From: Promethearchaeota archaeon | GTDB lineage: Archaea; Asgardarchaeota; Lokiarchaeia; Sigyniarchaeales; Promethearchaeaceae | DNA: 32,000 nt | Direction: 5' to 3' | NCBI GenBank assembly: GCA_016933055.1 | Contig: JAFGBS010000001.1 | Location: forward strand, 120,001 to 152,000 | Part shown: piece by piece, positions 5,592 through 30,343 of the stretch | Position numbering within the stretch: position 1 is the first letter of the stretch | Layout: each line of letters begins with the position of its first letter | The notes under the pieces: generated by a model | The model's input: only the letters and a program-made list of their open reading frames with translations | What the model was told of the DNA's origin: nothing | Databases searched by the model: none | Position numbers and translations under genes: made by a program

Positions 5592-5611
5592 TTTTTTCCC
5601 CCTATTTTTTT
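5592..5611 (+). terminator. Oligo-T archaeal terminator candidate between convergent genes
   Basis: A T6 run directly follows the stop codon at 5591. A further T7 run at 5605-5611 overlaps the end of acnA. Confidence 0.4.
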
Positions 5612-8268
5612 AATAAATTTCGTAAAACGGTGTGCAAAATGCCCCCATTTTGGTAATATTCTATATCAACCTCGCTATCTAACCGAACTACTGTCTTAAA
5701 TTTAATCATTTTGTTTTCACGTTCCGCTATCACATCAATTTCCGATAAAGGTTTCATAGTTTCGATTCCCAAAATCGAGATCTTCTCAGTTCCGATTAAT
5801 CCAACTGATTGGGCATTTTCTCCTTCTTTAAATTGCAAAGGTAGAACCCCCATACCTACTAGGTTACTTCTATGGATTCTTTCATATGAGGTGGCAATCA
5901 CAACTTTCACTCCTAATAACCATGTTCCTTTCGCAGCCCAATCGCGACTGCTTCCCATCCCATAATCTTTCCCCGCAATCACTACTGCGGGGATTCTCTT
6001 TTCGATATATTTCATCGCTGCGGTGTATATAGGCAATTCCTCCCCGGTTGGGTGATAAATGGTCCATCCTCCCTCTCTATCCACTAGTAAATTCCGAATT
6101 CTGATGTTCCCAAATGTACCTCGCATCATCACTTCATGATTTCCTCGACGGGATCCAAAGGAATTGAAATCCTCCGGATTTACTCCTTTTTTGATCAGAT
6201 ATCTCCCAGCTGGCATATCTTTAGGAATTGAACCTGCAGGGGAGATATGGTCGGTTGTGACACTTTCACCCAAGAGAGCTAATATTCGAGCTTCTTTTAT
6301 ATTTTCTAAATCGGGAATTTCTACGGGGAAATCCTTGAAAAAAGGAGGTTCTCGAATATAAGTAGAATTCTCATCCCATTGGTACACACTCTCTTGAGGT
6401 GTTTCTAATTTGTTCCAAAGATCCCAGCCTTTGAAAATTTCTCCATATTCTTCTTGAAATAAATCTGGTTTAACATATTCCGCAACCAATTTTTGAATTT
6501 CATCTGAATCTGGCCAAATATCTTTTAAGAAAACTGGTGTTCCATCTTCAGTCAAACCTAGTGGTTCTTTTTCCAAGTTTATCGCTACAGTTCCTGCTAT
6601 TGCAAATACTACCACTAATGGTGGAGAAGCAAGATAATTTGCACGAACATGCGGACTAATTCTTCCCTCAAAATTCCGATTTCCACTTAATACTGACGTA
6701 ACCGCAAGATCTTTTTCAATAATTTGTCTTACTATTTCCGTATCCAATGGTCCGCTATTCCCAATGCACGTAGTACAACCATATCCTACCAGATAAAATC
6801 CAAGTTTCTCTAAATATTTCATCAATCCAGAATTTTCCATGTAATCGGTAACTACTCGAGAACCTGGAGCAAAAGAGGTCTTAACAAAAGGTTTCACTTT
6901 CAATCCTTTTTGAACTGCATTCCGTGCAAGTAACCCGGCTCCAATCATTACGGAGGGATTAGATGTATTTGTACAAGACGTGATTGCTGCTATAACAATT
7001 GAACCATTATTTAAAGTGGAACCATCCGATATTAAATCTAATTCAACAGATTTGTCTAGATATGTTTTCATTGTTTTTCTAAATGCATTTTTCATCTCTT
7101 TAAGCATAATTCGGTCCTGCGGTCTTTTCGGACCTGCTAAACTTGACTCTACGGAGGTTAAATCGAATTCTATTAATTCATTATAATCGGGTATGGATTG
7201 CCCGTCAGTATAAAACAATCCCACTTTTTTAAGGTAGGTTTCAACAAGCTCTACATGGTCCACGTTCCGACCGCTTAAACGGAGATAATTTAAAGTCTCT
7301 TGGGTGGCGGGGAAATAATTCATAGTAGAACCGCATTCAGGAGCCATGTTTGCTATGGTTGCCCTATCGGGTAGTGAGAGAGTATTTAAACCCGGGCCAA
7401 AGAATTCAACAAACTTTTCCACCACACCGATCTCACGAAGTTTTTCTGTAATTGCCAAAACAACATCCGTGGCAGTAATCCCTTCTTTTAATTTTCCTAC
7501 TAATTTTACCCCCACTACTTCGGGAATATTCATATAATAGGGTTGTCCAAGCATAACTGCTTCTGCTTCTATTCCTCCTACCCCCCATCCTAAACAACTA
7601 AGTCCATTGATCATAGTGGTATGTGAATCAGTACCAATACAAGAATCAGGATATACCACGATTTCTCCATTTACGTCCCGTTTGTCAACAATCTTGCCCA
7701 GATATTCTAAGTTCACTTGGTGGCAAATACCTCGACTTGTTGGAACTACTCGGAAATTCTTTAATTTTTCTTGTGCCCATTTCAATAGAATGTATCGCTC
7801 CCGATTCCGCTCCATTTCATATTCTTCGTTTTTCTGTCGTGCGTTTGTGGAATCTGCAAAGTCTACTTGAATGGAATGGTCGATCACCAAATCAACGGGA
7901 TTTACCGGATTGATTTTTTCAGGGTCCCTTCCTGCGCGTTCCATCGCAGATCGTAAAGCGGCTAAATCAACAACAGCTGGAACTCCTGTGAAATCTTGTA
8001 GTAATACGCGGGTGGGTATAAAGGCTATTTCTGAATCCGAACTATTTTTAGTATCCCACTTACATAACGCCATCAGATGATTCTTAGTAACTAACTTTCC
8101 ATCCAGATTGCGTAAAATATTTTCAAGCAGTATCCGATGGGAATAAGGGAGTTTGCTAATTTTTACTAATTTTAACTCTTCCAATTTTTTTATATTATAA
8201 ATCGTTACTTTTCCCATGCTTGTGGGTATTTTTTCTTTAGTGTTGGCTTGAATTTCAATCATGTGCAT
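5602..8268 (-). CDS. acnA: Aconitate hydratase, AcnA/IRP1 family
   Basis: LLQDFTGVPAVVDLA, DHSIQVD, GICHQVNLE, GTDSHTT, the three cluster Cys (SCTNTSNP; GCTTCIGNSG), TTDHISPAG, GSSRDWAAKG; 888 aa. Alternative start at 8262. Confidence 0.97.
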   Translation of the reverse strand: MHMIEIQANTKEKIPTSMGKVTIYNIKKLEELKLVKISKLPYSHRILLENILRNLDGKLVTKNHLMALCKWDTKNSSDSEIAFIPTRVLLQDFTGVPAVVDLAALRSAMERAGRDPEKINPVNPVDLVIDHSIQVDFADSTNARQKNEEYEMERNRERYILLKWAQEKLKNFRVVPTSRGICHQVNLEYLGKIVDKRDVNGEIVVYPDSCIGTDSHTTMINGLSCLGWGVGGIEAEAVMLGQPYYMNIPEVVGVKLVGKLKEGITATDVVLAITEKLREIGVVEKFVEFFGPGLNTLSLPDRATIANMAPECGSTMNYFPATQETLNYLRLSGRNVDHVELVETYLKKVGLFYTDGQSIPDYNELIEFDLTSVESSLAGPKRPQDRIMLKEMKNAFRKTMKTYLDKSVELDLISDGSTLNNGSIVIAAITSCTNTSNPSVMIGAGLLARNAVQKGLKVKPFVKTSFAPGSRVVTDYMENSGLMKYLEKLGFYLVGYGCTTCIGNSGPLDTEIVRQIIEKDLAVTSVLSGNRNFEGRISPHVRANYLASPPLVVVFAIAGTVAINLEKEPLGLTEDGTPVFLKDIWPDSDEIQKLVAEYVKPDLFQEEYGEIFKGWDLWNKLETPQESVYQWDENSTYIREPPFFKDFPVEIPDLENIKEARILALLGESVTTDHISPAGSIPKDMPAGRYLIKKGVNPEDFNSFGSRRGNHEVMMRGTFGNIRIRNLLVDREGGWTIYHPTGEELPIYTAAMKYIEKRIPAVVIAGKDYGMGSSRDWAAKGTWLLGVKVVIATSYERIHRSNLVGMGVLPLQFKEGENAQSVGLIGTEKISILGIETMKPLSEIDVIAERENKMIKFKTVVRLDSEVDIEYYQNGGILHTVLRNLLKK

Positions 8269-8341
8269 TCTATCGTTCCTATATTTTTAAATATGTCTTT
8301 ATCGGTAGATCAGATAATCCATGCAGTAATTTAATTCTACT

Positions 8342-8351
8342 TTTTATAAAA
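8342..8351 (-). promoter_or_regulatory. Candidate TATA box (TTTTATAAAA palindrome) for acnA
   Basis: Lies in the 140-nt gap about 75 nt upstream of the acnA start, suggesting acnA has its own promoter. Confidence 0.35.
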
Positions 8352-8408
8352 GATTACAAATTTAGAGTTGCTGGCAGAGAAAAAGGAAAGTCATCAGACA
8401 TATAGATA

Positions 8409-9470
8409 TTACACTCGTTGCAAAACCTCACTAGATATCTTTTCTAAATTCTTACAGTTGGTCATCAACATTGCTTTTTTTAAGGTCTCTCTCAAATATT
8501 CCATATGAACCCGAACCCCCGCAGAACCAGCACCAACTGCTGCACGAATTAAATCTCTACCAACTAATACACTTTCTGCACCAAGAGCTAGCATTTTTAA
8601 CACATCATAGCCCGTGCGTATACCTCCATCTGCCATTATTTTGATCTTTCCTTTTACTTCCGATGCAATCTCTTGAAGCACATCTGCAGTTCCAGGAGTA
8701 TGATCCAATACTCTACCTCCATGATTACTAACCACTATTCCTGCTGCGCCAGTATTAACAGCAATCAGGGCATCTTCGATAGTCATTACACCTTTTATGA
8801 TCACCGGTAAACTAGTAGCTTGAACTAAATCTCGAATTTCTTCAGGGGATTTTCGATACACGAGTTGGTTATGAGTTTTCATTGCATAACTTCCAGCGCC
8901 ATCGATATCAATACCAACAGCAAGTGCACCTGCCTCTTCCGCTTTCTTGAAAAATTCAATGAGTAATTCTTGTTTTATAGGTTTACATATTTTTACTCCC
9001 CAACCCCTCGCTTCCTTAATTGCATTAATGCCAAAAGGTGTATTCAAAGAATAAGTATAAGTATGTCCCCGCCATCCTATTGTTCCAGCTTCTTTACAGC
9101 CTAAAACAATGGAGTGACAAAAATCTTGTTCAGAAATAACGGTATCTCCTCCGAAACTCTTCACTCCAGAAGTACTTGCTCCCATGATTGGCATAGAAGT
9201 TTCATACCCAAAAAAAGAATAATTTGTGTCGGGTTCAAAATGTTCCCCAATAAGACGCATTTTAAGTTGAAATTTTTCCAATGCTAAAATATTATTATGG
9301 AATGAAGCTCCAGAACCGACTCCCCCTATTCCTAAAGATGACTTATATGATTGATTCTGACATAAACGAGATGGATCTCCATCGCAAATTTTATAAACTC
9401 CGCAAATTCCTTTTAATTTTTCTTTTGCTTGTTTTCGTACATCTTCTAGGGATAACTTTTCCTTTGTCAT
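8409..9470 (-). CDS. FMN-dependent alpha-hydroxy-acid oxidoreductase (glycolate oxidase/L-lactate dehydrogenase superfamily, anaerobe-type)
   Basis: IIKGVMT (FMN Lys), VVSNHGGRVLD (catalytic His/Arg), DGGIRTGYD, VLVGR; N-terminal Cys-rich segment. ATG 9470 is preceded by GAGG and lies 10 nt after the fumC stop; the track start at 9503 overlaps fumC. Confidence 0.9.
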   Translation of the reverse strand: MTKEKLSLEDVRKQAKEKLKGICGVYKICDGDPSRLCQNQSYKSSLGIGGVGSGASFHNNILALEKFQLKMRLIGEHFEPDTNYSFFGYETSMPIMGASTSGVKSFGGDTVISEQDFCHSIVLGCKEAGTIGWRGHTYTYSLNTPFGINAIKEARGWGVKICKPIKQELLIEFFKKAEEAGALAVGIDIDGAGSYAMKTHNQLVYRKSPEEIRDLVQATSLPVIIKGVMTIEDALIAVNTGAAGIVVSNHGGRVLDHTPGTADVLQEIASEVKGKIKIMADGGIRTGYDVLKMLALGAESVLVGRDLIRAAVGAGSAGVRVHMEYLRETLKKAMLMTNCKNLEKISSEVLQRV

Positions 9471-9480
9471 TATTTTTTCC

Positions 9481-23200: not shown

Positions 23201-23331
23201 ACATTCATTATACTTTACCCATTTATTACCCCGCTTCTAAGCCGATATTGTATAGTTTAGGGAATTTAACCAAAATTTTATATCGTTCTATACTTTTTCC
23301 TTCTCAAATTCTAGCTTTTAAAGTGAGCAGC

Positions 23332-24672
23332 ATGAAGAAAAAATCTGTAATAATTATCGGCGCATTAGGCATGGACTTCCATGTATTTAACACCGTATTT
23401 CGAGACAACGAGGAATATAATGTTATTGCATTTACTATTGCAGGAGAACAAAATGTTGGTACTACCGAGAATGCAGAACGTAAATATCCTTCTGAACTAG
23501 CGGGTGTACTCTATCCAAATGGAATTCCGATGGTACCTGAAACTGAATTGATCTCCATGATAAAGAAACATAATGTAGATGAAGTGGTTTTTGCCTACTC
23601 TGATGTTTCTCATGAAGAAGTAATGCATAAAGCCTCCCGAACACTTGCAGCGGGTGCAAATTATCGGTTAATTTCAAAAAGATTCACGATGATTAAGGCT
23701 AAAAAACCCGTTGTAGCTATTTGTGCGGTTCGTACGGGGTGTGGAAAATCTCAAGTGTCTCGAGCAACCTACCGCTACTTAAAATCCAAGGGACATCGGG
23801 TTGTAGCTATTAGAGAACCGATGCCGTATGGTGATTTGGTAGAACAAGAAGTTATGCGATTCGCAACTTATGAAGACCTTGATAAATACAAATGTACAAT
23901 CGAAGAAAGGGAAGAATATGAGCCGTATATTGAACAAGGTTTGGTTATTTACAGTGGCGTTGATTATGAGAAAATTGTGAGAGAAGCGGAGAAAGAAGCT
24001 GATGTAATTGTGTTTGATGGAGGAAATAACGAAATTTCTTTCTATGTTCCCGATTTGCAATTTGTAGTCGTAGATCCGCTTCGACCAGGTCACGAGATGA
24101 AATATCATCCCGGAGAAGTAAACGCGCGTTTAGCAGATGCGTTTGTCATTAATAAAATGAATAGTGCAAAACCAGAGAATGTTGCAATAGTTGATAAAAA
24201 TCTGGATGAATTAAATCCAAAAGCGATGAGAATTTATACAGATTCCGTAGTAACAGTCGATAACGTCAAAGAAATTAAAGGTAAACGAGCTATAGTGGTG
24301 GAGGACGGCCCAACATTAACTCACGGGAATATGGCTTATGGGGCAGGGTATATTGCTGCTAAAAACAACGATGTAACCATAGTGGATCCAAAACCACATA
24401 TTGTAGGTACTATGAAAAAAGTGTTTGAAGAATTTCCACAAATTACTGAAATCGTACCCGCTATGGGATATAATGATGAACAAATCCGAGATATGCAAAC
24501 GACACTAAATAACATTGACGCAGACATTATCATAGATGGGTCTCCAATTGACTTGGCAAAATTAGTGAAAGTAAATAAACCGATCTATCGAGTGTACTAT
24601 GACATTGAATCTATCCAATCTCCAAGTATAGAGGATGCCTTAGATAAATTTATTGCAAAACACCTTAATTAA
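23332..24672 (+). CDS. P-loop ATP-dependent ligase of the cDPGS / arginine synthetase (ArcE)-like family, with divergent motifs
   Basis: P-loop AVRTGCGKS; AYSDVSH; PMPYGDL; TIEEREEYEP; DGGNN; HPGE; VEDGPTLTHG; PAMGY. The start ATG 23332 (MKKKSVIIIG) is preferred over TTG 23248. Confidence 0.85.
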   Translation: MKKKSVIIIGALGMDFHVFNTVFRDNEEYNVIAFTIAGEQNVGTTENAERKYPSELAGVLYPNGIPMVPETELISMIKKHNVDEVVFAYSDVSHEEVMHKASRTLAAGANYRLISKRFTMIKAKKPVVAICAVRTGCGKSQVSRATYRYLKSKGHRVVAIREPMPYGDLVEQEVMRFATYEDLDKYKCTIEEREEYEPYIEQGLVIYSGVDYEKIVREAEKEADVIVFDGGNNEISFYVPDLQFVVVDPLRPGHEMKYHPGEVNARLADAFVINKMNSAKPENVAIVDKNLDELNPKAMRIYTDSVVTVDNVKEIKGKRAIVVEDGPTLTHGNMAYGAGYIAAKNNDVTIVDPKPHIVGTMKKVFEEFPQITEIVPAMGYNDEQIRDMQTTLNNIDADIIIDGSPIDLAKLVKVNKPIYRVYYDIESIQSPSIEDALDKFIAKHLN

Positions 24673-24881: not shown

Positions 24882-27065
24882 ATGATTCTATCTGAAATGA
24901 AATATGAAATGCATCCTATAGAAAAGGGATATAATAATCGCACTTTATATGTGAATCTTACAACAAACGAAATTCAAATTAAACTCGTTACCCAAGGAAT
25001 GAAAGAAACATTCACTGGAGGTAAAGGGTTTGATCTTTGGTTAATGTGGAACTCGTTGCCGAAAGATCGAATTGTAAAGTGGAATGATCCCGAAAACGAA
25101 ATTTGTATAGCTTCGGGACCACTTTCTGGTACTAACTTCATCCCAGGTTCTGGAAAATCAATTGTTACTACTATATCCCCTTTAACGGGAATGATTATTG
25201 ATTCAAATGTAGGGGGGTTCTATGGTCCTTTCCTAAAATATTCCGGGTTTGATGCAATTGAGATCCAAGGAAAAGCAAAAGAAGAAGTTGTTGTTTTTGT
25301 TGATGGCGAGAATCATGTTGTTCGGATTGAAACAGCGGAAAACACCCCTAAATATTCACATGAACTCACTCAATACCTCACTAATAATTTTTCCCCTGAA
25401 GATAATCCAGCAGATAAGTATCGTGTTTCAGTTGTTTCCACGGGTCCTGCTGCCGGCTACACTAACTGGGGGTTGTTGAATTTTAGCTGGTATATTCGAC
25501 CCCGGGAATGGGCTTCGTATAAACAAGCGGGTCGGGGGGGAATTGGCACTGTGTTTAAAGATAAAAACATCAAAGCTTTAATTTGCTTGTCCCCCAAAAA
25601 ACCCCAACGTGATGTAGGTGCTGCAAATAAGGATATTGCACGAAATTCGGGAGCTAAACATAACAAAGAAATTATTACTAATGATCCAAAGCAAAATCAA
25701 ATGCGGCAGATTGGAACGGGACACCTTCCTATCATTATGAATGAATATGATCTTTTACCTACAGAAAACTATCGATTTGGAAGACATCGGACTTGGAGTG
25801 AAGAAGAGGGTGAATTTCCGTACTCTTGGGATGTCTGGAAAACCTTTATGATTGATGAACATGGTCTTAGTGGATGTTGGACGGGGTGTACTATTGCTTG
25901 CTCGCATTTTTCTCCTAATCACACTTTACTGACAGGTCCACTCAAAGGACAGGTAGTCCCTATTGATGGTCCCGAATATGAAACTATTGCAGGTTGCGGG
26001 TCAAATTGGGGGGTCTGGGATCCGAAATGGATTCTGGAAGTCAATTTTTACTGTGATACCTATGGGCTTGATACCATTTCAGTGGGAACTGGTATTGCAT
26101 TTGTAATGGAGTGTTATGAATCCGGAATTCTGAATAAGGAAATTACCGGTGGTTTAGAATTGAACTTTGGAAATGCAGAAGCTGCAATGGAATTAGTTCA
26201 TCAAATGGCTCGTGGTGAGGGCTTTGGGATGATTGTTGGAAAAGGTATTCGTCAAATGAAGAAAATTTTTGCTGATAATTATGGTGGAGACCCCCAATTT
26301 CTCCAAGATATCGGAATGGAGCATAAAGGACTTGAAGTTTCTGAATATATGACCAAGGAATCTATTGCCCAACAAGGTGGCTATGGATTCACACTTAAAG
26401 GGCCTCAACACGATGAAGCGTGGCTCATATTCGAGGATATGGTAAGAAAGTCAATTCCAACGTTTGAGGATAAAGCTAATGCGCTGTGTTGGTTTCCGTT
26501 CTTTAGAACTTGGTTTGGGTTGAATGGATTATGTAAATTACCATGGAATGATGTGCAACCTCCAGATAATAAAGATAATCCTATAAAAGATGAGAACGGA
26601 GAACTATATCGGGCACGTATTCCCAAGCATGTACAGTTCTACGCGGATTATGCTGAAGGAATTACCGGTGTACCAACTACACCTGAAGATCTTGTAAAGA
26701 GAAGTGAAGTTGTATATAATTTCCAACGTATTTTCAATATTCGACAAGGGCACGGATTGCGGAACGACGATGCAAATTTTCCGTATCGTGGTATGGGACC
26801 GGTTACTCCCTTGGAATATGAAAGTCGGAAGAGTCGTTATGACACTCAGTTGAAAGAGATTTTAGGAATCGATCCTACCGATAAAACAACAGAGGAAAAA
26901 ATTAGGAACTTACGGAAATATAGAGAGGAGCAATACACGAAATTGCAAAATGTTGTATATGAGAAACGCGGATGGAGTAAGCACGGTTGTCCGACCATTG
27001 AGAAAGTTAAAGAACTCGGAATTGATTTTGAAGACGTGCTTAAGGTCATTCAACCATACCAATAA
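24882..27065 (+). CDS. Tungsten/molybdenum aldehyde:ferredoxin oxidoreductase family protein (long 727-aa type)
   Basis: GPLSGT..PGSGK, SPLTG.I.DSNVGG, LKYSGFDAI, GRGGIGTVF..KNIKA, Cys cluster CWTGCTIAC, GPEYET, CDTYGLDTIS, HKGLE, GLCK, Y..RGW...G.P. Confidence 0.93.
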   Translation: MILSEMKYEMHPIEKGYNNRTLYVNLTTNEIQIKLVTQGMKETFTGGKGFDLWLMWNSLPKDRIVKWNDPENEICIASGPLSGTNFIPGSGKSIVTTISPLTGMIIDSNVGGFYGPFLKYSGFDAIEIQGKAKEEVVVFVDGENHVVRIETAENTPKYSHELTQYLTNNFSPEDNPADKYRVSVVSTGPAAGYTNWGLLNFSWYIRPREWASYKQAGRGGIGTVFKDKNIKALICLSPKKPQRDVGAANKDIARNSGAKHNKEIITNDPKQNQMRQIGTGHLPIIMNEYDLLPTENYRFGRHRTWSEEEGEFPYSWDVWKTFMIDEHGLSGCWTGCTIACSHFSPNHTLLTGPLKGQVVPIDGPEYETIAGCGSNWGVWDPKWILEVNFYCDTYGLDTISVGTGIAFVMECYESGILNKEITGGLELNFGNAEAAMELVHQMARGEGFGMIVGKGIRQMKKIFADNYGGDPQFLQDIGMEHKGLEVSEYMTKESIAQQGGYGFTLKGPQHDEAWLIFEDMVRKSIPTFEDKANALCWFPFFRTWFGLNGLCKLPWNDVQPPDNKDNPIKDENGELYRARIPKHVQFYADYAEGITGVPTTPEDLVKRSEVVYNFQRIFNIRQGHGLRNDDANFPYRGMGPVTPLEYESRKSRYDTQLKEILGIDPTDKTTEEKIRNLRKYREEQYTKLQNVVYEKRGWSKHGCPTIEKVKELGIDFEDVLKVIQPYQ

Positions 27066-27083
27066 ATCGGAAGAAACCACCAA

Positions 27084-29180
27084 ATGAAGGATATTCAAGA
27101 ACACCCGATTTTAACCATACCAGAACGCAAGAAAATTTCTTTCACGTTCAATGGAGTACCACTAATGGGATATGAGGGAATTGTTATTTCCTCCAATCTT
27201 TTTCTCAATGGTATTAAGATATTTGGACATCATGAAAAAGATAATTCTCCCCAAGGCATTTTTTGTTGCATGGGGCAATGTTCGCAATGCATGGTTCTCG
27301 TAAACGGGCAAGCTATGAAATCTTGTATGACACCATTAAAAGAGGGTATGCAGATTGAAAGCTGTGAGGGGTTGCCAGAACTTCCAGCTCGCGATTCACC
27401 AAGAGAAACTCAACAAATTGAAATCCTTAAAGTAAATACCCTCATAATCGGGGCGGGACCCTCGGGATTATCCGCTGCTAAAACTCTGGGTGAAAAAGGA
27501 GTGGAAATATTACTTATTGATGATAAGGATAGAGTTGGAGGTAAACTAGTGTTGCAAACGCACAAATTCTTTGGTTCTCAAGAGGATGTGTATGCGGGAA
27601 AGCGAGGAATAGAAATCGCAGATATTTTGGGTGATCAGGTAAAAATACTAGAATCGGTTAGGATCTGGTTAAACTCTACTGCTGTAGGATTATTTAGCGA
27701 TGGATTTGTAGGAATTCTCAAAGATCATGACACGTATGTTCTAGTAAAACCAGAAAACTTACTGATCGCAACCGGTGCTCGTGAAAAAATGCTTGTTTTT
27801 CCTGGAAATACTCTACCGGGAGTGTATGGAGCGGGGGCCTTCCAAGTTCTAGTAAATAGAGATCTTGTGAAACCTGCAGAACAAGTGTTTATTGTAGGGG
27901 GGGGAAATGTGGGCTTGATTGCAGGATATCATGCGATCCAAGCTGGAATTGAGGTGATTGGATTAATAGAAGCACTTCCACAATGCGGTGGTTATAAAGT
28001 TCATGAAGAAAAACTCAGACGATTGGGAGTTCCTATATACACCAGTTATACAATTGTCTCTGCAAATGGAAAAAACCGAGTTGAATCCATAACCATAGGA
28101 AAAATTGATGAAAATTGGATGCTAATTCCCGGAACAGAACGAACCTATAAATGTGATACGATTCTGATTGCGGTCGGATTGAATCCTGTGGATGAGTTTT
28201 ATACGAAAGCGAAAGAATATGGATATAGTGTATGGATCTGCGGGGATGCTCAAGAAATTGCGGAAGCTTCCGCTGCAATATTTACAGGTAGAATTGAAGC
28301 GATAAAGATTCTTAATAAAATGGGGGTGGATATTTCTGATTGTGATGAACTTACATATCTTGAACAAAAAGCTACCATCATGAAAACTCACCCCCCCTCC
28401 CCTACAGAATTCGCATGTCCCGATAAAGAAGAAGGTATTTTTCCTGTTTTTCATTGTACCCAAGAGATTCCCTGCAATCCTTGTACAACAGTGTGCCCAC
28501 AAGGTCAAATCCATACTATAAATGATGCTATTGACAAGCTTCCGTATTTTAAAGGAGAAAAAGAGTGTATTGGATGTGGTGCTTGCGTTGCCGTCTGTCC
28601 TGGGCTTGCAATTACGCTAGTAGACTATCGAAGAGACCCTCAAAATCCACATGTTACATTCCCTATGGAATTAACTGAAGAAAAAATCAAAAAAGGATCT
28701 ACAATAATTGTAGCTAGTGAAGACGGAAACTTGGGAAAATACGATGTTATCCATTCACGTATTTTACCTCAATTTCCCAAAACCCATTTAGTCACTGTAC
28801 AACTTCCCGCGAATATTGCAAAATTAGCAACAGCGATTAAATTAGTCCCTAAAAAGCAGACTACCATCGAGCCTATCGATTTGTATAAATCTGAACGTAT
28901 TGAAGATGATGAAATTGTATGTCGATGTGAACGAGTGACTGCAGCTACGGTACGGATGTGGATACGGAAAGGTGTTAAAGATTTCAATGAACTGAAGGGT
29001 TTAACGAGAGTGGGCATGGGTTCTTGCCAAGGAAAAACGTGTATACCTATCATAATGCGTATTTTTAGAGACGAAGGCGTTCCTATTGACGAAGTTACCG
29101 AAAACACCATTCGTCCCTTATATATGGAAGTCCCCTTAGGAACTTTCGCGGGGGTCAAAAGGGAGGATGAGAATACATGA
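27084..29180 (+). CDS. Fused Fe-S flavoprotein: [2Fe-2S] + FAD/NAD(P) reductase + 2x[4Fe-4S] + BFD-like [2Fe-2S] (sarcosine oxidase-alpha / proline dehydrogenase-alpha-like)
   Basis: FCCMGQCSQC...SC; GAGPSG; ATGAREK; GGGNVG; CTQEIPCNPCTTVCP and CIGCGACVAVCP; VCRCERV...GMGSCQGKTC. Confidence 0.88.
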   Translation: MKDIQEHPILTIPERKKISFTFNGVPLMGYEGIVISSNLFLNGIKIFGHHEKDNSPQGIFCCMGQCSQCMVLVNGQAMKSCMTPLKEGMQIESCEGLPELPARDSPRETQQIEILKVNTLIIGAGPSGLSAAKTLGEKGVEILLIDDKDRVGGKLVLQTHKFFGSQEDVYAGKRGIEIADILGDQVKILESVRIWLNSTAVGLFSDGFVGILKDHDTYVLVKPENLLIATGAREKMLVFPGNTLPGVYGAGAFQVLVNRDLVKPAEQVFIVGGGNVGLIAGYHAIQAGIEVIGLIEALPQCGGYKVHEEKLRRLGVPIYTSYTIVSANGKNRVESITIGKIDENWMLIPGTERTYKCDTILIAVGLNPVDEFYTKAKEYGYSVWICGDAQEIAEASAAIFTGRIEAIKILNKMGVDISDCDELTYLEQKATIMKTHPPSPTEFACPDKEEGIFPVFHCTQEIPCNPCTTVCPQGQIHTINDAIDKLPYFKGEKECIGCGACVAVCPGLAITLVDYRRDPQNPHVTFPMELTEEKIKKGSTIIVASEDGNLGKYDVIHSRILPQFPKTHLVTVQLPANIAKLATAIKLVPKKQTTIEPIDLYKSERIEDDEIVCRCERVTAATVRMWIRKGVKDFNELKGLTRVGMGSCQGKTCIPIIMRIFRDEGVPIDEVTENTIRPLYMEVPLGTFAGVKREDENT

Positions 29181-30343
29181 CCTTTTACGATGTAATTATC
29201 GTTGGAGCGGGTAGTATCGGCACACCTACCGCAATGGCATTAGCAAATGCAGGAGTAAAAACTTTGGTTGTTGATAAACTACCATCCGTTGCTCAAGGGG
29301 ACAATAAACATGCCATAGGAGGAATTCGCGCTACACATTCCCAAAAAAGCAAAATTCTCGTTTGCCAGCGTTCTTTAGAAATATTTTCTACTTGGGAAGA
29401 ATTATATGGAGATGATATCTGGTGGGTAGAAGGTGGATATTCCTTTGTTGCGCGATCTGTAGAACACGAACGCCTTCTAAGAGAAACAGTAGAAATTCAG
29501 AAAGAGTATGGATTGAACATCAGTTTTTTGGATGCTGAACAGATTCAGGAACTTATACCTGGAATAAATCCCATTGGTTTGCATGGTGGTACATATAGCC
29601 CAGAAGATGGGAATGCTTCTCCTCTTTATAGTGTACACGCATTCTACGATAATGCTACCAGAAACGGGGCAGAATTTAAGTTTAAAGAGCAAGTCAAGAA
29701 CATCCTAACTAAAAACAGACACGTTGTCGGTGTTAGGACTGACAAAGCTGATTATCAAGCTTCCTTTGTGATTAATGCAGCTGGTGGTAACGGAAAAGAA
29801 ATCGCTAAAATGGTGGATGTTAATGTTCCTTTAGAACCGGAATCTCATGAAGCGGGTATAACTGAAGGAGTAAAATATTTTTTGAGACCAATGGTAGTAG
29901 ATATTCAGCCAGGAACAGATCCCACCTTCGGTAATTCAAAAAATTATTATTTCTATCAAAATAAATTCGGGAAGATAATTTTCTGTATAACCCCAAATCC
30001 GAGTGTTAAAGGAAAGGATAGAACAGAAACTAGTTTTTTTCTTCCCCAAATAGCAAAACGAATGGTTGATCTGATGCCTCGACTCAGCAATATAAAAGTT
30101 CGTCGTCAGTGGAGAGGATTGTACCCGATGACTCCTGATGGAATTCCAATTGTTGGAACAGTAAAGAATATTGCTGGATATATAAATGCAGTAGGGATGT
30201 GTGGTCAAGGTTTTATGTTAGGCCCTGGATTGGGGGAAGTTCTTTGCCGTTTGGTAGAAAAAAAAATTACATCCCAAGACAAGGAAATACTAAAAGAATT
30301 CTCCCTTTATCGTGATTTTGGCAGTGAAGAGAAATTAAAATAA
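29177..30343 (+). CDS. DAO-family FAD-dependent amine/amino-acid dehydrogenase (sarcosine oxidase-beta / L-proline dehydrogenase-beta-like)
   Basis: GAGSIG, GGIRATHS, DGNASP, INAAGG, WRGLYPMTPDGIPIVG, GMCGQGFMLGP; ATGA overlap with the upstream gene. Confidence 0.88.
   Translation: MTFYDVIIVGAGSIGTPTAMALANAGVKTLVVDKLPSVAQGDNKHAIGGIRATHSQKSKILVCQRSLEIFSTWEELYGDDIWWVEGGYSFVARSVEHERLLRETVEIQKEYGLNISFLDAEQIQELIPGINPIGLHGGTYSPEDGNASPLYSVHAFYDNATRNGAEFKFKEQVKNILTKNRHVVGVRTDKADYQASFVINAAGGNGKEIAKMVDVNVPLEPESHEAGITEGVKYFLRPMVVDIQPGTDPTFGNSKNYYFYQNKFGKIIFCITPNPSVKGKDRTETSFFLPQIAKRMVDLMPRLSNIKVRRQWRGLYPMTPDGIPIVGTVKNIAGYINAVGMCGQGFMLGPGLGEVLCRLVEKKITSQDKEILKEFSLYRDFGSEEKLK

What the first reader, a model, noticed from the sequence alone, without database searches (positions are those of the whole stretch)
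8409..9470. FMN alpha-hydroxy-acid oxidoreductase sits where the missing malate dehydrogenase would be expected
The only TCA step missing from the cluster is malate/oxaloacetate. The only non-TCA gene in it is an FMN alpha-hydroxy-acid dehydrogenase, 10 nt downstream of fumC in the same operon (seen). L-malate is an alpha-hydroxy acid and the product of FumC. The N-terminus carries C-x5-C-x7-C (CGVYKICDGDPSRLC). As I recall, anaerobe homologues have CxxCxxC-x4-C, so the second Cys may be replaced by Tyr here, leaving a possible Fe-S/metal site for electron exit. Inference: this is a non-canonical, NAD-independent L-malate dehydrogenase, or an L-2-hydroxyglutarate/lactate/glycolate enzyme feeding the cycle.
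Basis: inference. Interest (0 to 1): 0.72.

Follow-up and report, generated by a model that had tools for sequence, protein, structure and literature searches.

The report
Iron-sulfur hydroxy-acid dehydrogenase in TCA operon
An Asgard archaeon carries, as the last gene of a citric-acid-cycle operon, an uncharacterised flavin enzyme of the lactate/glycolate-oxidase family with a probable iron-sulfur site; it may oxidise malate without NAD, but the genome also has a conventional candidate for that step.

Summary
Window 8409-9470 (-) encodes a 353-aa PF01070 (FMN_dh) protein 10 nt after fumC. It is the last gene of korA-korB-sdhA-sdhB-fumC-X and carries C-x5-C-x7-C at residues 23-37.

New here:
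- The three Cys are invariant in a large uncharacterised subfamily.
- Anaerobic bacteria have C-x2-C-x2-C-x4-C. The Asgard clade lost the second Cys once, leaving a [3Fe-4S]-like pattern.
- The basal members of that clade are fused to rubredoxin.

The catalytic His/Arg/Lys/Asp of hydroxy-acid oxidases are kept. Tyr24, Tyr129 and Arg164 are not.

In 40 of 201 Asgard genomes the gene recurs next to TCA genes in at least five arrangements: fumC->X, korAB->X, X->citrate synthase, X->aconitase and Rd-X->korAB-fumC-sdhAB. It therefore brackets the malate/oxaloacetate step.

The 'missing MDH' premise is weak:
- The genome has an Ldh_2-family MDH candidate 31 kb away, an L-LDH and a malic enzyme.
- 34 of the 40 carriers have Ldh_2.
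- Of 31 fumC-positive genomes without any Ldh, only one has X.

Best reading (about 0.4): an NAD-independent L-malate:iron-sulfur/rubredoxin oxidoreductase working beside a conventional MDH. L-2-hydroxyglutarate, L-lactate and amino-acid substrates remain open.

Earlier scan notes had seen the Cys4 motif only in ATP-grasp fusions on other DNA.

The parts
8409..9470 (-). Gene X: 353-aa FMN-dependent alpha-hydroxy-acid oxidoreductase family protein with a Cys insertion
   Evidence: PF01070 at 205 bits. AF2 model with pLDDT 94.9 and pTM 0.94. Foldseek TM 0.75-0.79 to mandelate, glycolate and lactate oxidases.
9360..9404 (-). Codons for residues 23-37, C-x5-C-D-G-x5-C: probable [3Fe-4S] or other metal site inside a roughly 20-residue insertion relative to glycolate oxidase
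   Evidence: C23, C29 and C37 are invariant in 56 sequences. hhalign against a GOX-like protein places an 18-residue gap here. Cluster binding is inferred, not shown.
8712..8729 (-). Codons for S248-N-H250-G-G-R253, the catalytic His/Arg motif of the family
   Evidence: Read by hand. Invariant in A1 and A2. Aligns to SNHG(A/G)RQ of lactate oxidase and hydroxyacid oxidase.
9471..9480 (-). 10-nt fumC-X spacer; a GAGG overlaps the fumC stop
   Evidence: Sequence.
9481..10875 (-). fumC, class II fumarase, immediately upstream
   Evidence: Lyase_1 at 289 bits plus FumaraseC_C at 72.5 bits.
10869..13362 (-). sdhB (10869-11648) and sdhA (11650-13362); no membrane-anchor genes in the cluster
   Evidence: Fer2_3 and Fer4_8; FAD_binding_2 at 359 bits plus Succ_DH_flav_C.
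13373..15952 (-). korB (13373-14224) and korA (14225-15952), a two-subunit 2-oxoacid:ferredoxin oxidoreductase and the first genes of the arm
   Evidence: TPP_enzyme_C and PFO_beta_C; POR_N and POR.
8380..8389 (-). T-rich run 20-29 nt after the stop of X, a possible archaeal terminator
   Evidence: Read. Its function is inferred only.
8340..8350 (-). TTTATAAAAAG, a TATA-like box 72-82 nt upstream of the aconitase ATG. It suggests that aconitase has its own promoter and that X ends the operon.
   Evidence: Read. Inference only.
5602..8268 (-). Aconitase, the next gene downstream after a 140-nt spacer
   Evidence: Aconitase at 532 bits plus Aconitase_C.

Best explanation
X is an iron-sulfur flavoprotein of the FMN-dependent (S)-2-hydroxy-acid oxidoreductase family. 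FMN in a TIM barrel takes two electrons from the C2-H of a 2-hydroxy acid. The family's His250/Asp188 base, Arg253 carboxylate clamp and Lys226 are used for this. The electrons then leave one at a time through a three-Cys cluster, probably [3Fe-4S], carried on an N-terminal insertion at the mouth of the active site. The acceptor is a soluble one-electron carrier (rubredoxin or ferredoxin), not O2 or NAD+. The most likely substrate is L-malate, the product of the FumC encoded 10 nt upstream, giving oxaloacetate. That would make X a quinone-free functional counterpart of malate:quinone oxidoreductase. It would pull the thermodynamically uphill malate oxidation alongside, not instead of, an NAD-linked Ldh_2-type MDH. 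With a low-potential donor the same enzyme could run in reverse for the ATP-citrate-lyase (reductive) direction.

Shown: fold, family, conserved catalytic residues, the conserved Cys triad, rubredoxin fusions in relatives, and recurrent TCA gene neighbourhoods.

Inferred: the cluster, the electron partner, the substrate and the direction.
For: - Family and fold.
- The catalytic S-N-H-G-G-R motif, K226 and D188/D190 are invariant.
- The Cys triad is invariant. Bacterial relatives have the 4-Cys C-x2-C-x2-C-x4-C motif. The 3-Cys clade is monophyletic at 99/99.
- Rubredoxin domains are fused N-terminally in the basal 3-Cys lineages: PF21349 in P0122 and P0123, PF00301 in P0124, and the Asgard f7/f12 proteins. 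The window's genome encodes a free 47-aa mini-rubredoxin.
- Gene order brackets the malate/oxaloacetate step.
  - fumC->X is seen in 10 of 11 genomes of family f2, and the 11th is split at a contig edge. It is also seen in two further MAG contigs.
  - X->citrate synthase occurs in families f27 and f16.
  - Rd-X->korAB-fumC-sdhAB occurs in f7, korAB->X in f22, and X->aconitase in f27.
  - In all, 6 of the 7 families that carry X show a TCA link.
- 33 of 40 carriers have fumC.
- No MQO was found in any of 201 genomes.
- Established knowledge: malate oxidation by NAD+ is strongly endergonic (E0' about -170 mV against -320 mV), whereas rubredoxin or [3Fe-4S] potentials make it favourable.
Against: - The gene is accessory, present in 40 of 201 genomes. 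It is not found in the two other genomes of the window's own family.
- It co-occurs with Ldh_2 in 34 of 40 carriers. It fills the gap in only 1 of 31 fumC-positive genomes that lack both Ldh_1 and Ldh_2.
- In relatives that have fumC but lack X, nothing MDH-like takes its place, so there is no sign of gene displacement.
- In family f5 (13 genomes) X stands alone among unrelated genes.
- No member of this enzyme family is known to use malate. The known classes are lactate, glycolate, long-chain, mandelate and hydroxymandelate enzymes plus flavocytochrome b2 (PMC9670274).
- The substrate-binding Tyr24, Tyr129 and Arg164 of glycolate oxidase are not conserved, so the pocket is remodelled and cannot be read from sequence.
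- I could not inspect model coordinates, so the distance from the cluster to the flavin is not established.
Confidence: 0.4

Rival explanations
1. X is an L-2-hydroxyglutarate dehydrogenase. It would return to 2-oxoglutarate the L-2-hydroxyglutarate that Ldh-type malate dehydrogenases make by mistake, or it would feed 2-oxoglutarate to KorAB.
For: X lies directly after korAB in f22 and before korAB in f7. It co-occurs with Ldh_2 in 34 of 40 carriers, as expected for a repair enzyme that accompanies the error-prone enzyme. The substrate would be an (S)-2-hydroxy dicarboxylate, which fits the family's stereochemistry.
Against: The adjacency to fumC and to citrate synthase is not explained. Known L-2-hydroxyglutarate oxidases and dehydrogenases belong to the FAD/DAO family, not to this one (PMC8491902). 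Ldh_2 is common with or without X: 71 genomes have Ldh_2 only.
Confidence: 0.15
2. [quoted passage not shown] It would make pyruvate for the two-subunit 2-oxoacid:ferredoxin oxidoreductase and hence acetyl-CoA for citrate synthesis.
For: The closest characterised relatives are lactate and glycolate oxidases. Automatic names for the bacterial relatives are 'L-lactate oxidase'. korAB-type enzymes can be broad in specificity (my own knowledge). The orders korAB->X and X->citrate synthase fit a route from lactate to acetyl-CoA to citrate.
Against: Scores are far below the LldD and LOX equivalog cut-offs: 126 against 550 and 110 against 646. The conserved Tyr residues of the lactate oxidase pocket are missing. 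No lactate permease was found in this 91%-complete genome. The genome already has an NAD-type L-LDH. The tight fumC->X pair is unexplained.
Confidence: 0.15
3. X oxidises a different alpha-substituted acid. One option is an amino acid: aspartate to oxaloacetate or glutamate to 2-oxoglutarate, by oxidative deamination as MftD does to an amine, or as the reverse of the FMN/[3Fe-4S] step of glutamate synthase. The other is glycolate or another hydroxy acid.
For: MftD shows that the family can oxidise amines (NCBIfam hit TIGR03966). Relatives are fused to ATP-grasp L-amino-acid-ligase domains. A HAD_2 fusion hints at a phosphoglycolate/glycolate route in one lineage. Asgard archaea are thought to ferment amino acids (my own knowledge). 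The FMN plus three-Cys cluster recalls glutamate synthase (recollection).
Against: The catalytic motif is the hydroxy-acid type. No malate synthase or isocitrate lyase was found that could use glyoxylate. The ATP-grasp and HAD fusions lie in the 4-Cys bacterial clade, not in the 3-Cys clade.
Confidence: 0.1
4. X is a general electron-input enzyme for rubredoxin-dependent oxidative-stress defence. Its place in TCA operons would then reflect only co-regulation with central metabolism.
For: The fusions are to rubredoxin, and rubredoxin feeds rubrerythrin, superoxide reductase and related enzymes in anaerobes (established knowledge). One archaeal Rd-X gene sits divergently next to a peroxiredoxin. 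X stands alone in f5 and in two bacterial or archaeal loci.
Against: TCA neighbourhoods recur in five different gene orders across six families, with spacers of 10-140 nt. This is hard to explain without a metabolic link.
Confidence: 0.08

Closest known systems
Glycolate oxidase / hydroxyacid oxidases / L-lactate oxidase / (hydroxy)mandelate oxidase (HAOx family, PF01070; e.g. 1gox, 2rdu, 2du2, 5zzp)
   Same: TIM-barrel FMN fold (TM 0.75-0.79). The C-terminal half aligns at E 1e-35 to 1e-45. The catalytic His/Arg (SNHGGR), the Lys and the Asp are conserved.
   Different: About 25% identity. A roughly 20-residue Cys-bearing insertion follows the first helix. Tyr24, Tyr129 and Arg164 are not conserved. 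X is far below every NCBIfam equivalog cut-off. It forms a separate clade at 98/98. It occurs in strict anaerobes, so O2 is an unlikely acceptor.
Flavocytochrome b2 (yeast L-lactate:cytochrome c oxidoreductase, 1fcb)
   Same: The same FMN domain passes electrons singly to a built-in N-terminal one-electron carrier. The rubredoxin fusions of relatives copy this layout.
   Different: The carrier is a cytochrome b5 haem domain there. Here it is a Cys-triad site, with or without rubredoxin. No fused domain is present in the window protein.
Malate:quinone oxidoreductase (MQO, PF06039)
   Same: The proposed role is the same: NAD-independent malate oxidation working beside an NAD-MDH, as in E. coli and Corynebacterium.
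   Different: MQO is an unrelated FAD fold, is membrane-associated and needs quinone. It was not found in any of the 201 Asgard genomes searched. The likeness is of function only and is untested.
FMN + Fe-S TIM-barrel flavoproteins (trimethylamine dehydrogenase / 2,4-dienoyl-CoA reductase [4Fe-4S]; glutamate synthase FMN domain [3Fe-4S])
   Same: An FMN barrel carries a short Cys motif that relays electrons between the flavin and an external partner. The C-x5-C spacing recalls [3Fe-4S] sites. This rests on my recollection of those motifs.
   Different: These are different barrel families with different motif positions. There is only a weak PF01645 hit over the phosphate-binding region (30 bits).
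ATP-grasp / Cys4 / FMN_dh fusion proteins of spirochaetes and Nitrospinota (earlier scan notes e1-753318, e1-1505185)
   Same: The same Cys-motif FMN_dh subfamily at 33-43% identity. Also uncharacterised.
   Different: They have four Cys and a fused ligase domain, and they fall in the bacterial clade of the tree. No TCA context is reported.

Membership tests
FMN-dependent alpha-hydroxy-acid oxidoreductases (HAOx, PF01070) | Match to the Pfam model above the gathering score | tested here: met
   205 bits against 24.9.
FMN-dependent alpha-hydroxy-acid oxidoreductases (HAOx, PF01070) | (beta/alpha)8 FMN barrel superposable on solved members | tested here: met
   AF2 model with pLDDT 94.9. Foldseek E 1e-25 and TM 0.75-0.79 to 6a4h, 1tb3, 1al8 and 6rht.
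FMN-dependent alpha-hydroxy-acid oxidoreductases (HAOx, PF01070) | Catalytic base His, carboxylate-binding Arg (S-N-H-G-x-R), flavin N1/O2 Lys, and the Asp partnering the His | tested here: met
   H250, R253, K226 and D188/D190 are invariant in A1 and A2.
FMN-dependent alpha-hydroxy-acid oxidoreductases (HAOx, PF01070) | Substrate-binding Tyr24, Tyr129 and Arg164 (spinach glycolate oxidase numbering, from my own knowledge) | tested here: not met
   The Tyr24 segment is replaced by the Cys insertion. The beta3 end reads K-I-C-K-P, with K163-P164 nearly invariant. The Arg164 position is a variable Tyr, Thr or Ala. The alignment of residues 100-205 is of low confidence.
Named equivalogs: LldD, L-lactate oxidase, MftD, type 2 IPP isomerase | Score above the NCBIfam curated cut-off | tested here: not met
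   126 against 550, 110 against 646, 113 against 471 and 54 against 281. A true IDI2 is present in 178 of 201 Asgard genomes, including carriers of X.
Malate dehydrogenases (functional class) | Membership of a known MDH family (Ldh_1 with Arg at the specificity position, Ldh_2, or MQO) | tested here: not met
   X belongs to none of them. The Ldh_2 and Ldh_1 proteins lie elsewhere in the genome, and MQO was not found.
Malate dehydrogenases (functional class) | Oxidation of L-malate to oxaloacetate | not testable with these tools
   There is only gene-order evidence: fumC->X and X->citrate synthase.
Iron-sulfur flavoproteins | Conserved Cys ligand set | tested here: met
   C23, C29 and C37 are invariant in 56 sequences. 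Bacterial relatives have four Cys.
Iron-sulfur flavoproteins | A cluster is actually bound and lies within electron-transfer distance of FMN | not testable with these tools
The motif region has pLDDT 72-88.

The most novel reading that the evidence does not exclude
X founds a third, quinone-free kind of malate dehydrogenase. It would be an FMN/[3Fe-4S] hydroxy-acid dehydrogenase that hands malate electrons to rubredoxin or ferredoxin, letting strictly anaerobic Asgard archaea run the oxaloacetate-forming step (or its reverse) without the NAD+ thermodynamic penalty. More widely, the Cys-motif subfamily would be an unrecognised class of iron-sulfur hydroxy-acid dehydrogenases. It appears as dozens of clusters at 50% identity among anaerobic bacteria and archaea.
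Probability: 0.33. Interest if true: 0.8.

Novelty: new variant of a known kind. Interest (0 to 1): 0.6.

Why it matters
- No member of the hydroxy-acid oxidase family is known to carry an iron-sulfur site or to act on a TCA intermediate.
- If the Cys site is a cluster, this subfamily explains how strict anaerobes use an enzyme family otherwise tied to O2, haem or quinone.
- If the substrate is malate, central-carbon reconstructions of Asgard archaea gain a new enzyme for a step that is often unassigned. These reconstructions feed models of eukaryote origins. In 31 of 104 fumC-positive genomes here, no Ldh_1, Ldh_2 or MQO was found.
- The gene is small and soluble, and about 20 close orthologues are at hand, so the idea is directly testable.

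Tried and rejected
- **Type 2 IPP isomerase.** This genome shows no IDI1 or IDI2, so I asked whether X replaces it. Rejected: IDI2 is present in 178 of 201 Asgard genomes, including almost all carriers and both sister genomes. X scores 54 against a cut-off of 281.
- **Gene displacement.** In 12 relatives with fumC but without X, the slot after fumC holds a DUF4910/M28 peptidase, an aconitase-family gene or unrelated genes. It never holds an MDH.
- **Anti-correlation with MDH families.** None was found.
- **Glycolate to glyoxylate to malate.** No malate synthase or isocitrate lyase was found.
- **Lactate uptake.** No lactate permease was found. The genome is 91% complete, so this is weak.
- **Expression.** No RNA holder was listed; the two metatranscriptomes of the source study hold next to none of the stretch's words.
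- **Context of bacterial and other archaeal relatives** (P0134, P0122, P0123, P0124). Uninformative.
- **Literature.** Five searches found no paper on an Fe-S-bearing FMN_dh enzyme or on this gene in Asgard archaea.
- **Cluster geometry.** Model coordinates are not exposed, so Cys-Cys and Cys-FMN distances were not measured.
- **Complex prediction.** Not used. Carrier-enzyme pairs are poor cases for it, and I make no binding claim.
Full report
**The gene and its operon**

The window comes from an Asgard archaeon. The closest homologues are named Promethearchaeota, Lokiarchaeota, Hermod-, Thor- and Heimdallarchaeota MAG proteins. The window is G000:C16:120001-152000 of a 3.76-Mb genome that is 91% complete.

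On the minus strand, six genes run with gaps of -7 to 10 nt:
- korA (14225-15952)
- korB (13373-14224)
- sdhA (11650-13362)
- sdhB (10869-11648)
- fumC (9481-10875)
- the gene in question, X (8409-9470)

The spacer between fumC and X is 10 nt, and a GAGG overlaps the fumC stop. After X comes a 140-nt spacer with a T-rich run (8380-8389) and a TATA-like TTTATAAAAAG (8340-8350), then aconitase (5602-8268). X is therefore most likely the last gene of the kor-sdh-fumC transcript. This is inferred from the sequence; no RNA data could be had. The opposite arm holds sucC, sucD, both ATP-citrate lyase subunits and icd.

**What X is**

- X matches PF01070 (FMN_dh) at 205 bits. It lies far below the NCBIfam cut-offs for LldD, lactate oxidase, MftD and type 2 IPP isomerase.
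- Only its C-terminal 145 residues align strongly to solved lactate, glycolate, long-chain-hydroxyacid and mandelate oxidases and to flavocytochrome b2.
- An AlphaFold2 model built on 56 sequences is confident (pLDDT 94.9, pTM 0.94). It superposes on those oxidases at TM 0.75-0.79.
- The S-N-H-G-G-R motif (H250, R253), K226 and D188/D190 are invariant. The machinery that abstracts the C2 hydrogen of an (S)-2-hydroxy acid is therefore intact.
- The three residues that hold the substrate in glycolate oxidase are not conserved (Tyr24, Tyr129 and Arg164; numbering from my own knowledge).
  - The Tyr24 segment is displaced by an insertion.
  - The end of strand beta3 reads K-I-C-K-P, with K163-P164 nearly invariant.
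  - The Arg164 position is variable.
- The pocket is remodelled, and I cannot read the substrate from sequence.

**The cysteine motif**

Residues 23-37 read C-x5-C-D-G-x5-C. They sit in an insertion of about 20 residues between the first helix and the segment that enters the active site in classical members.

A search of 1.8 billion cluster representatives found 175 relatives below E 1e-30. The roughly 340-aa proteins of anaerobic Bacillota, Thermodesulfobacteriota and Spirochaetota carry C-x2-C-x2-C-[DN]-G-x2-C at the same place. The Asgard proteins have Tyr, Phe, Asn or His in place of the second Cys, plus 3+4 extra residues.

C23, C29 and C37 are invariant across all 56 aligned sequences. 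In a maximum-likelihood tree the Cys-motif proteins separate from classical glycolate-oxidase-like sequences (98/98). The three-Cys proteins form one clade (99/99), so the second Cys was lost once.

A C-x2-C-x2-C...C motif that loses its second Cys is the classic route from a [4Fe-4S] to a [3Fe-4S] site in ferredoxins (established knowledge). That a cluster is bound here is inference. Zinc or another metal is not excluded, and I could not measure distances in the model.

**Rubredoxin fusions**

The deepest branches of the three-Cys clade carry an N-terminal rubredoxin domain:
- PF21349 in P0122 and P0123
- PF00301 in a Methanomassiliicoccales protein
- Asgard proteins of families f7 and f12, 420-438 aa long

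This is the layout of flavocytochrome b2 with rubredoxin in place of the haem domain. It points to a one-electron acceptor. The window protein has no such domain, but the genome encodes a free 47-aa mini-rubredoxin of the same short type.

Other relatives in the four-Cys clade are fused to ATP-grasp L-amino-acid-ligase domains or to a HAD_2 phosphatase. Earlier notes of this scan describe the ATP-grasp fusions as conserved and uncharacterised. I found no paper on any Fe-S-bearing member. The published functional classes of the family include no malate enzyme and no iron-sulfur enzyme (PMC9670274; searches).

**Is the link with the TCA cycle conserved?**

Yes. X (E <= 1e-30) occurs in 40 of 201 species-representative Asgard genomes, and in 16 of 86 high-quality ones. 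The arrangements by family are:

| Family | Arrangement |
|---|---|
| f2 (sister to the window's family) | fumC about 20 nt upstream on the same strand in 10 of 11 genomes; the 11th is split at contig ends |
| Two NCBI MAG contigs | The same fumC->X pair, but there without sdhAB, so the pair is a unit of its own |
| f22 | X directly follows korA-korB in three genomes; in two others fumC or sdhAB lie 4-8 kb away |
| f7 | Two genomes have Rd-X->korA->korB->fumC->sdhA->sdhB |
| f27 | X->citrate synthase->aconitase, and X->aconitase |
| f16 | X->citrate synthase->icd |
| f5 | 13 genomes; in all 12 loci examined X stands alone, and in the four annotated it lies between a TPR protein and an S58 peptidase |

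Six of the seven families that carry X thus show a TCA link, in at least five different gene orders. X sits after fumC in some lineages and before citrate synthase in others, so gene order brackets the malate-to-oxaloacetate step. Related genomes are not independent, but the different arrangements are.

**Is MDH really missing?**

No. The genome has three relevant genes elsewhere:
- An Ldh_2-family gene lies on the same contig, 31 kb from X (C16:160886-161914, 383 bits). Its best solved relatives were deposited as malate dehydrogenases of Entamoeba and Pyrococcus. It reaches no NCBIfam equivalog cut-off, and its neighbours are unrelated.
- An Ldh_1 protein on C11 scores as L-lactate dehydrogenase (368 against 304). 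It has Gln, not Arg, at the specificity position.
- A malic enzyme is present.

Across the 201 genomes, Ldh_2 is in 105, Ldh_1 in 37 and MQO in none. Of the clear, high-scoring MDHs of the Ldh_1 type, there are only six, all in two families. Of the 40 carriers of X, 34 have Ldh_2 and 33 have fumC. Of the 31 fumC-positive genomes with neither Ldh family, only one has X. In 12 relatives that have fumC but lack X, no MDH-like gene occupies the slot.

X is therefore not a replacement for a lost MDH. It is an accessory enzyme added to some TCA gene sets.

**Reading**

The safest statement (about 0.7) is that X is an iron-sulfur-type, NAD- and O2-independent 2-hydroxy-acid dehydrogenase that works with the TCA cycle.

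The substrate best supported by gene order is L-malate (about 0.4). Having two malate enzymes has precedent in E. coli and Corynebacterium, which keep both MDH and MQO. The reason is that NAD-linked malate oxidation is uphill by about 30 kJ/mol, while a carrier near 0 to -130 mV makes it favourable (established knowledge). These archaea lack MQO, and SdhAB here has no membrane anchor. A soluble route from malate to an Fe-S carrier, possibly onward to SdhAB and fumarate, would fit. That last idea is pure speculation.

Rival substrates are L-2-hydroxyglutarate (kor adjacency; co-occurrence with Ldh_2), L-lactate (nearest characterised relatives; the oxidoreductase could take pyruvate) and an amino acid or glycolate. 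A role limited to feeding rubredoxin-dependent stress enzymes explains the stand-alone copies but not the operons.

The idea that X replaces the missing type 2 IPP isomerase of this assembly was tested and rejected.

**Verdict**

The Cys-motif branch of the hydroxy-acid oxidase family, its three-Cys/rubredoxin clade and its repeated recruitment into Asgard TCA operons appear undescribed. The malate assignment is a reasonable hypothesis that can be tested directly, not a result.

Noticed in passing
phylum survey: 31 of 104 fumC-positive Asgard genomes, mostly family f7, show no Ldh_1, Ldh_2 or MQO. Only one of them has X. The malate/oxaloacetate step is unassigned in these genomes.
   Followed up: partly
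G000 whole genome; f2 genomes: This 91%-complete genome gives no hit above cut-off for type 1 or type 2 IPP isomerase, although 178 of 201 Asgard genomes have IDI2. This is probably an assembly gap. In many f2 genomes the IDI2 match lies in an open frame of 627-665 aa, which suggests a fusion protein.
   Followed up: no
P0133, P0144, P0149, P0150, P0164, P0167; P0162; P0126, P0146, P0200, P0252: Bacterial four-Cys relatives occur as roughly 750-aa fusions behind an ATP-grasp/LAL_C2 ligase and as a HAD_2 phosphatase fusion. Other relatives without the Cys motif start with twin-arginine-like signal peptides.
   Followed up: partly
window 24882-30343 (+): Three genes lie next to the TCA cluster: an aldehyde:ferredoxin oxidoreductase, a 698-aa Fer2_4/Pyr_redox_2/BFD/4Fe-4S protein, and an overlapping 388-aa DAO-family flavoprotein. 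The last pair looks like archaeal proline-dehydrogenase or sarcosine-oxidase alpha/beta subunits.
   Followed up: no
window 23248-24672 (+): A 474-aa ORF with no Pfam family at E 1e-5 lies between icd and the AOR gene.
   Followed up: no
window 10869-13362 (-): SdhA and SdhB have no membrane-anchor subunit genes anywhere in the cluster. The electron partner of this soluble succinate dehydrogenase/fumarate reductase is unknown.
   Followed up: no
G000:C17:414762-414905 (L040:1438-1581 +): A free-standing 47-aa mini-rubredoxin (C-x2-C ... C-P-x-C-G) of the same short type as the domain fused to P0122 and P0123.
   Followed up: partly
f2 genomes, e.g. G141:C323:16427-18737, G077:C206:28857-31166: Many genomes of the sister family carry two Ldh_2 genes in tandem, whereas this genome has one. 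Ldh_2 is also present in genera that lack fumC, so not all copies can be TCA malate dehydrogenases.
   Followed up: no
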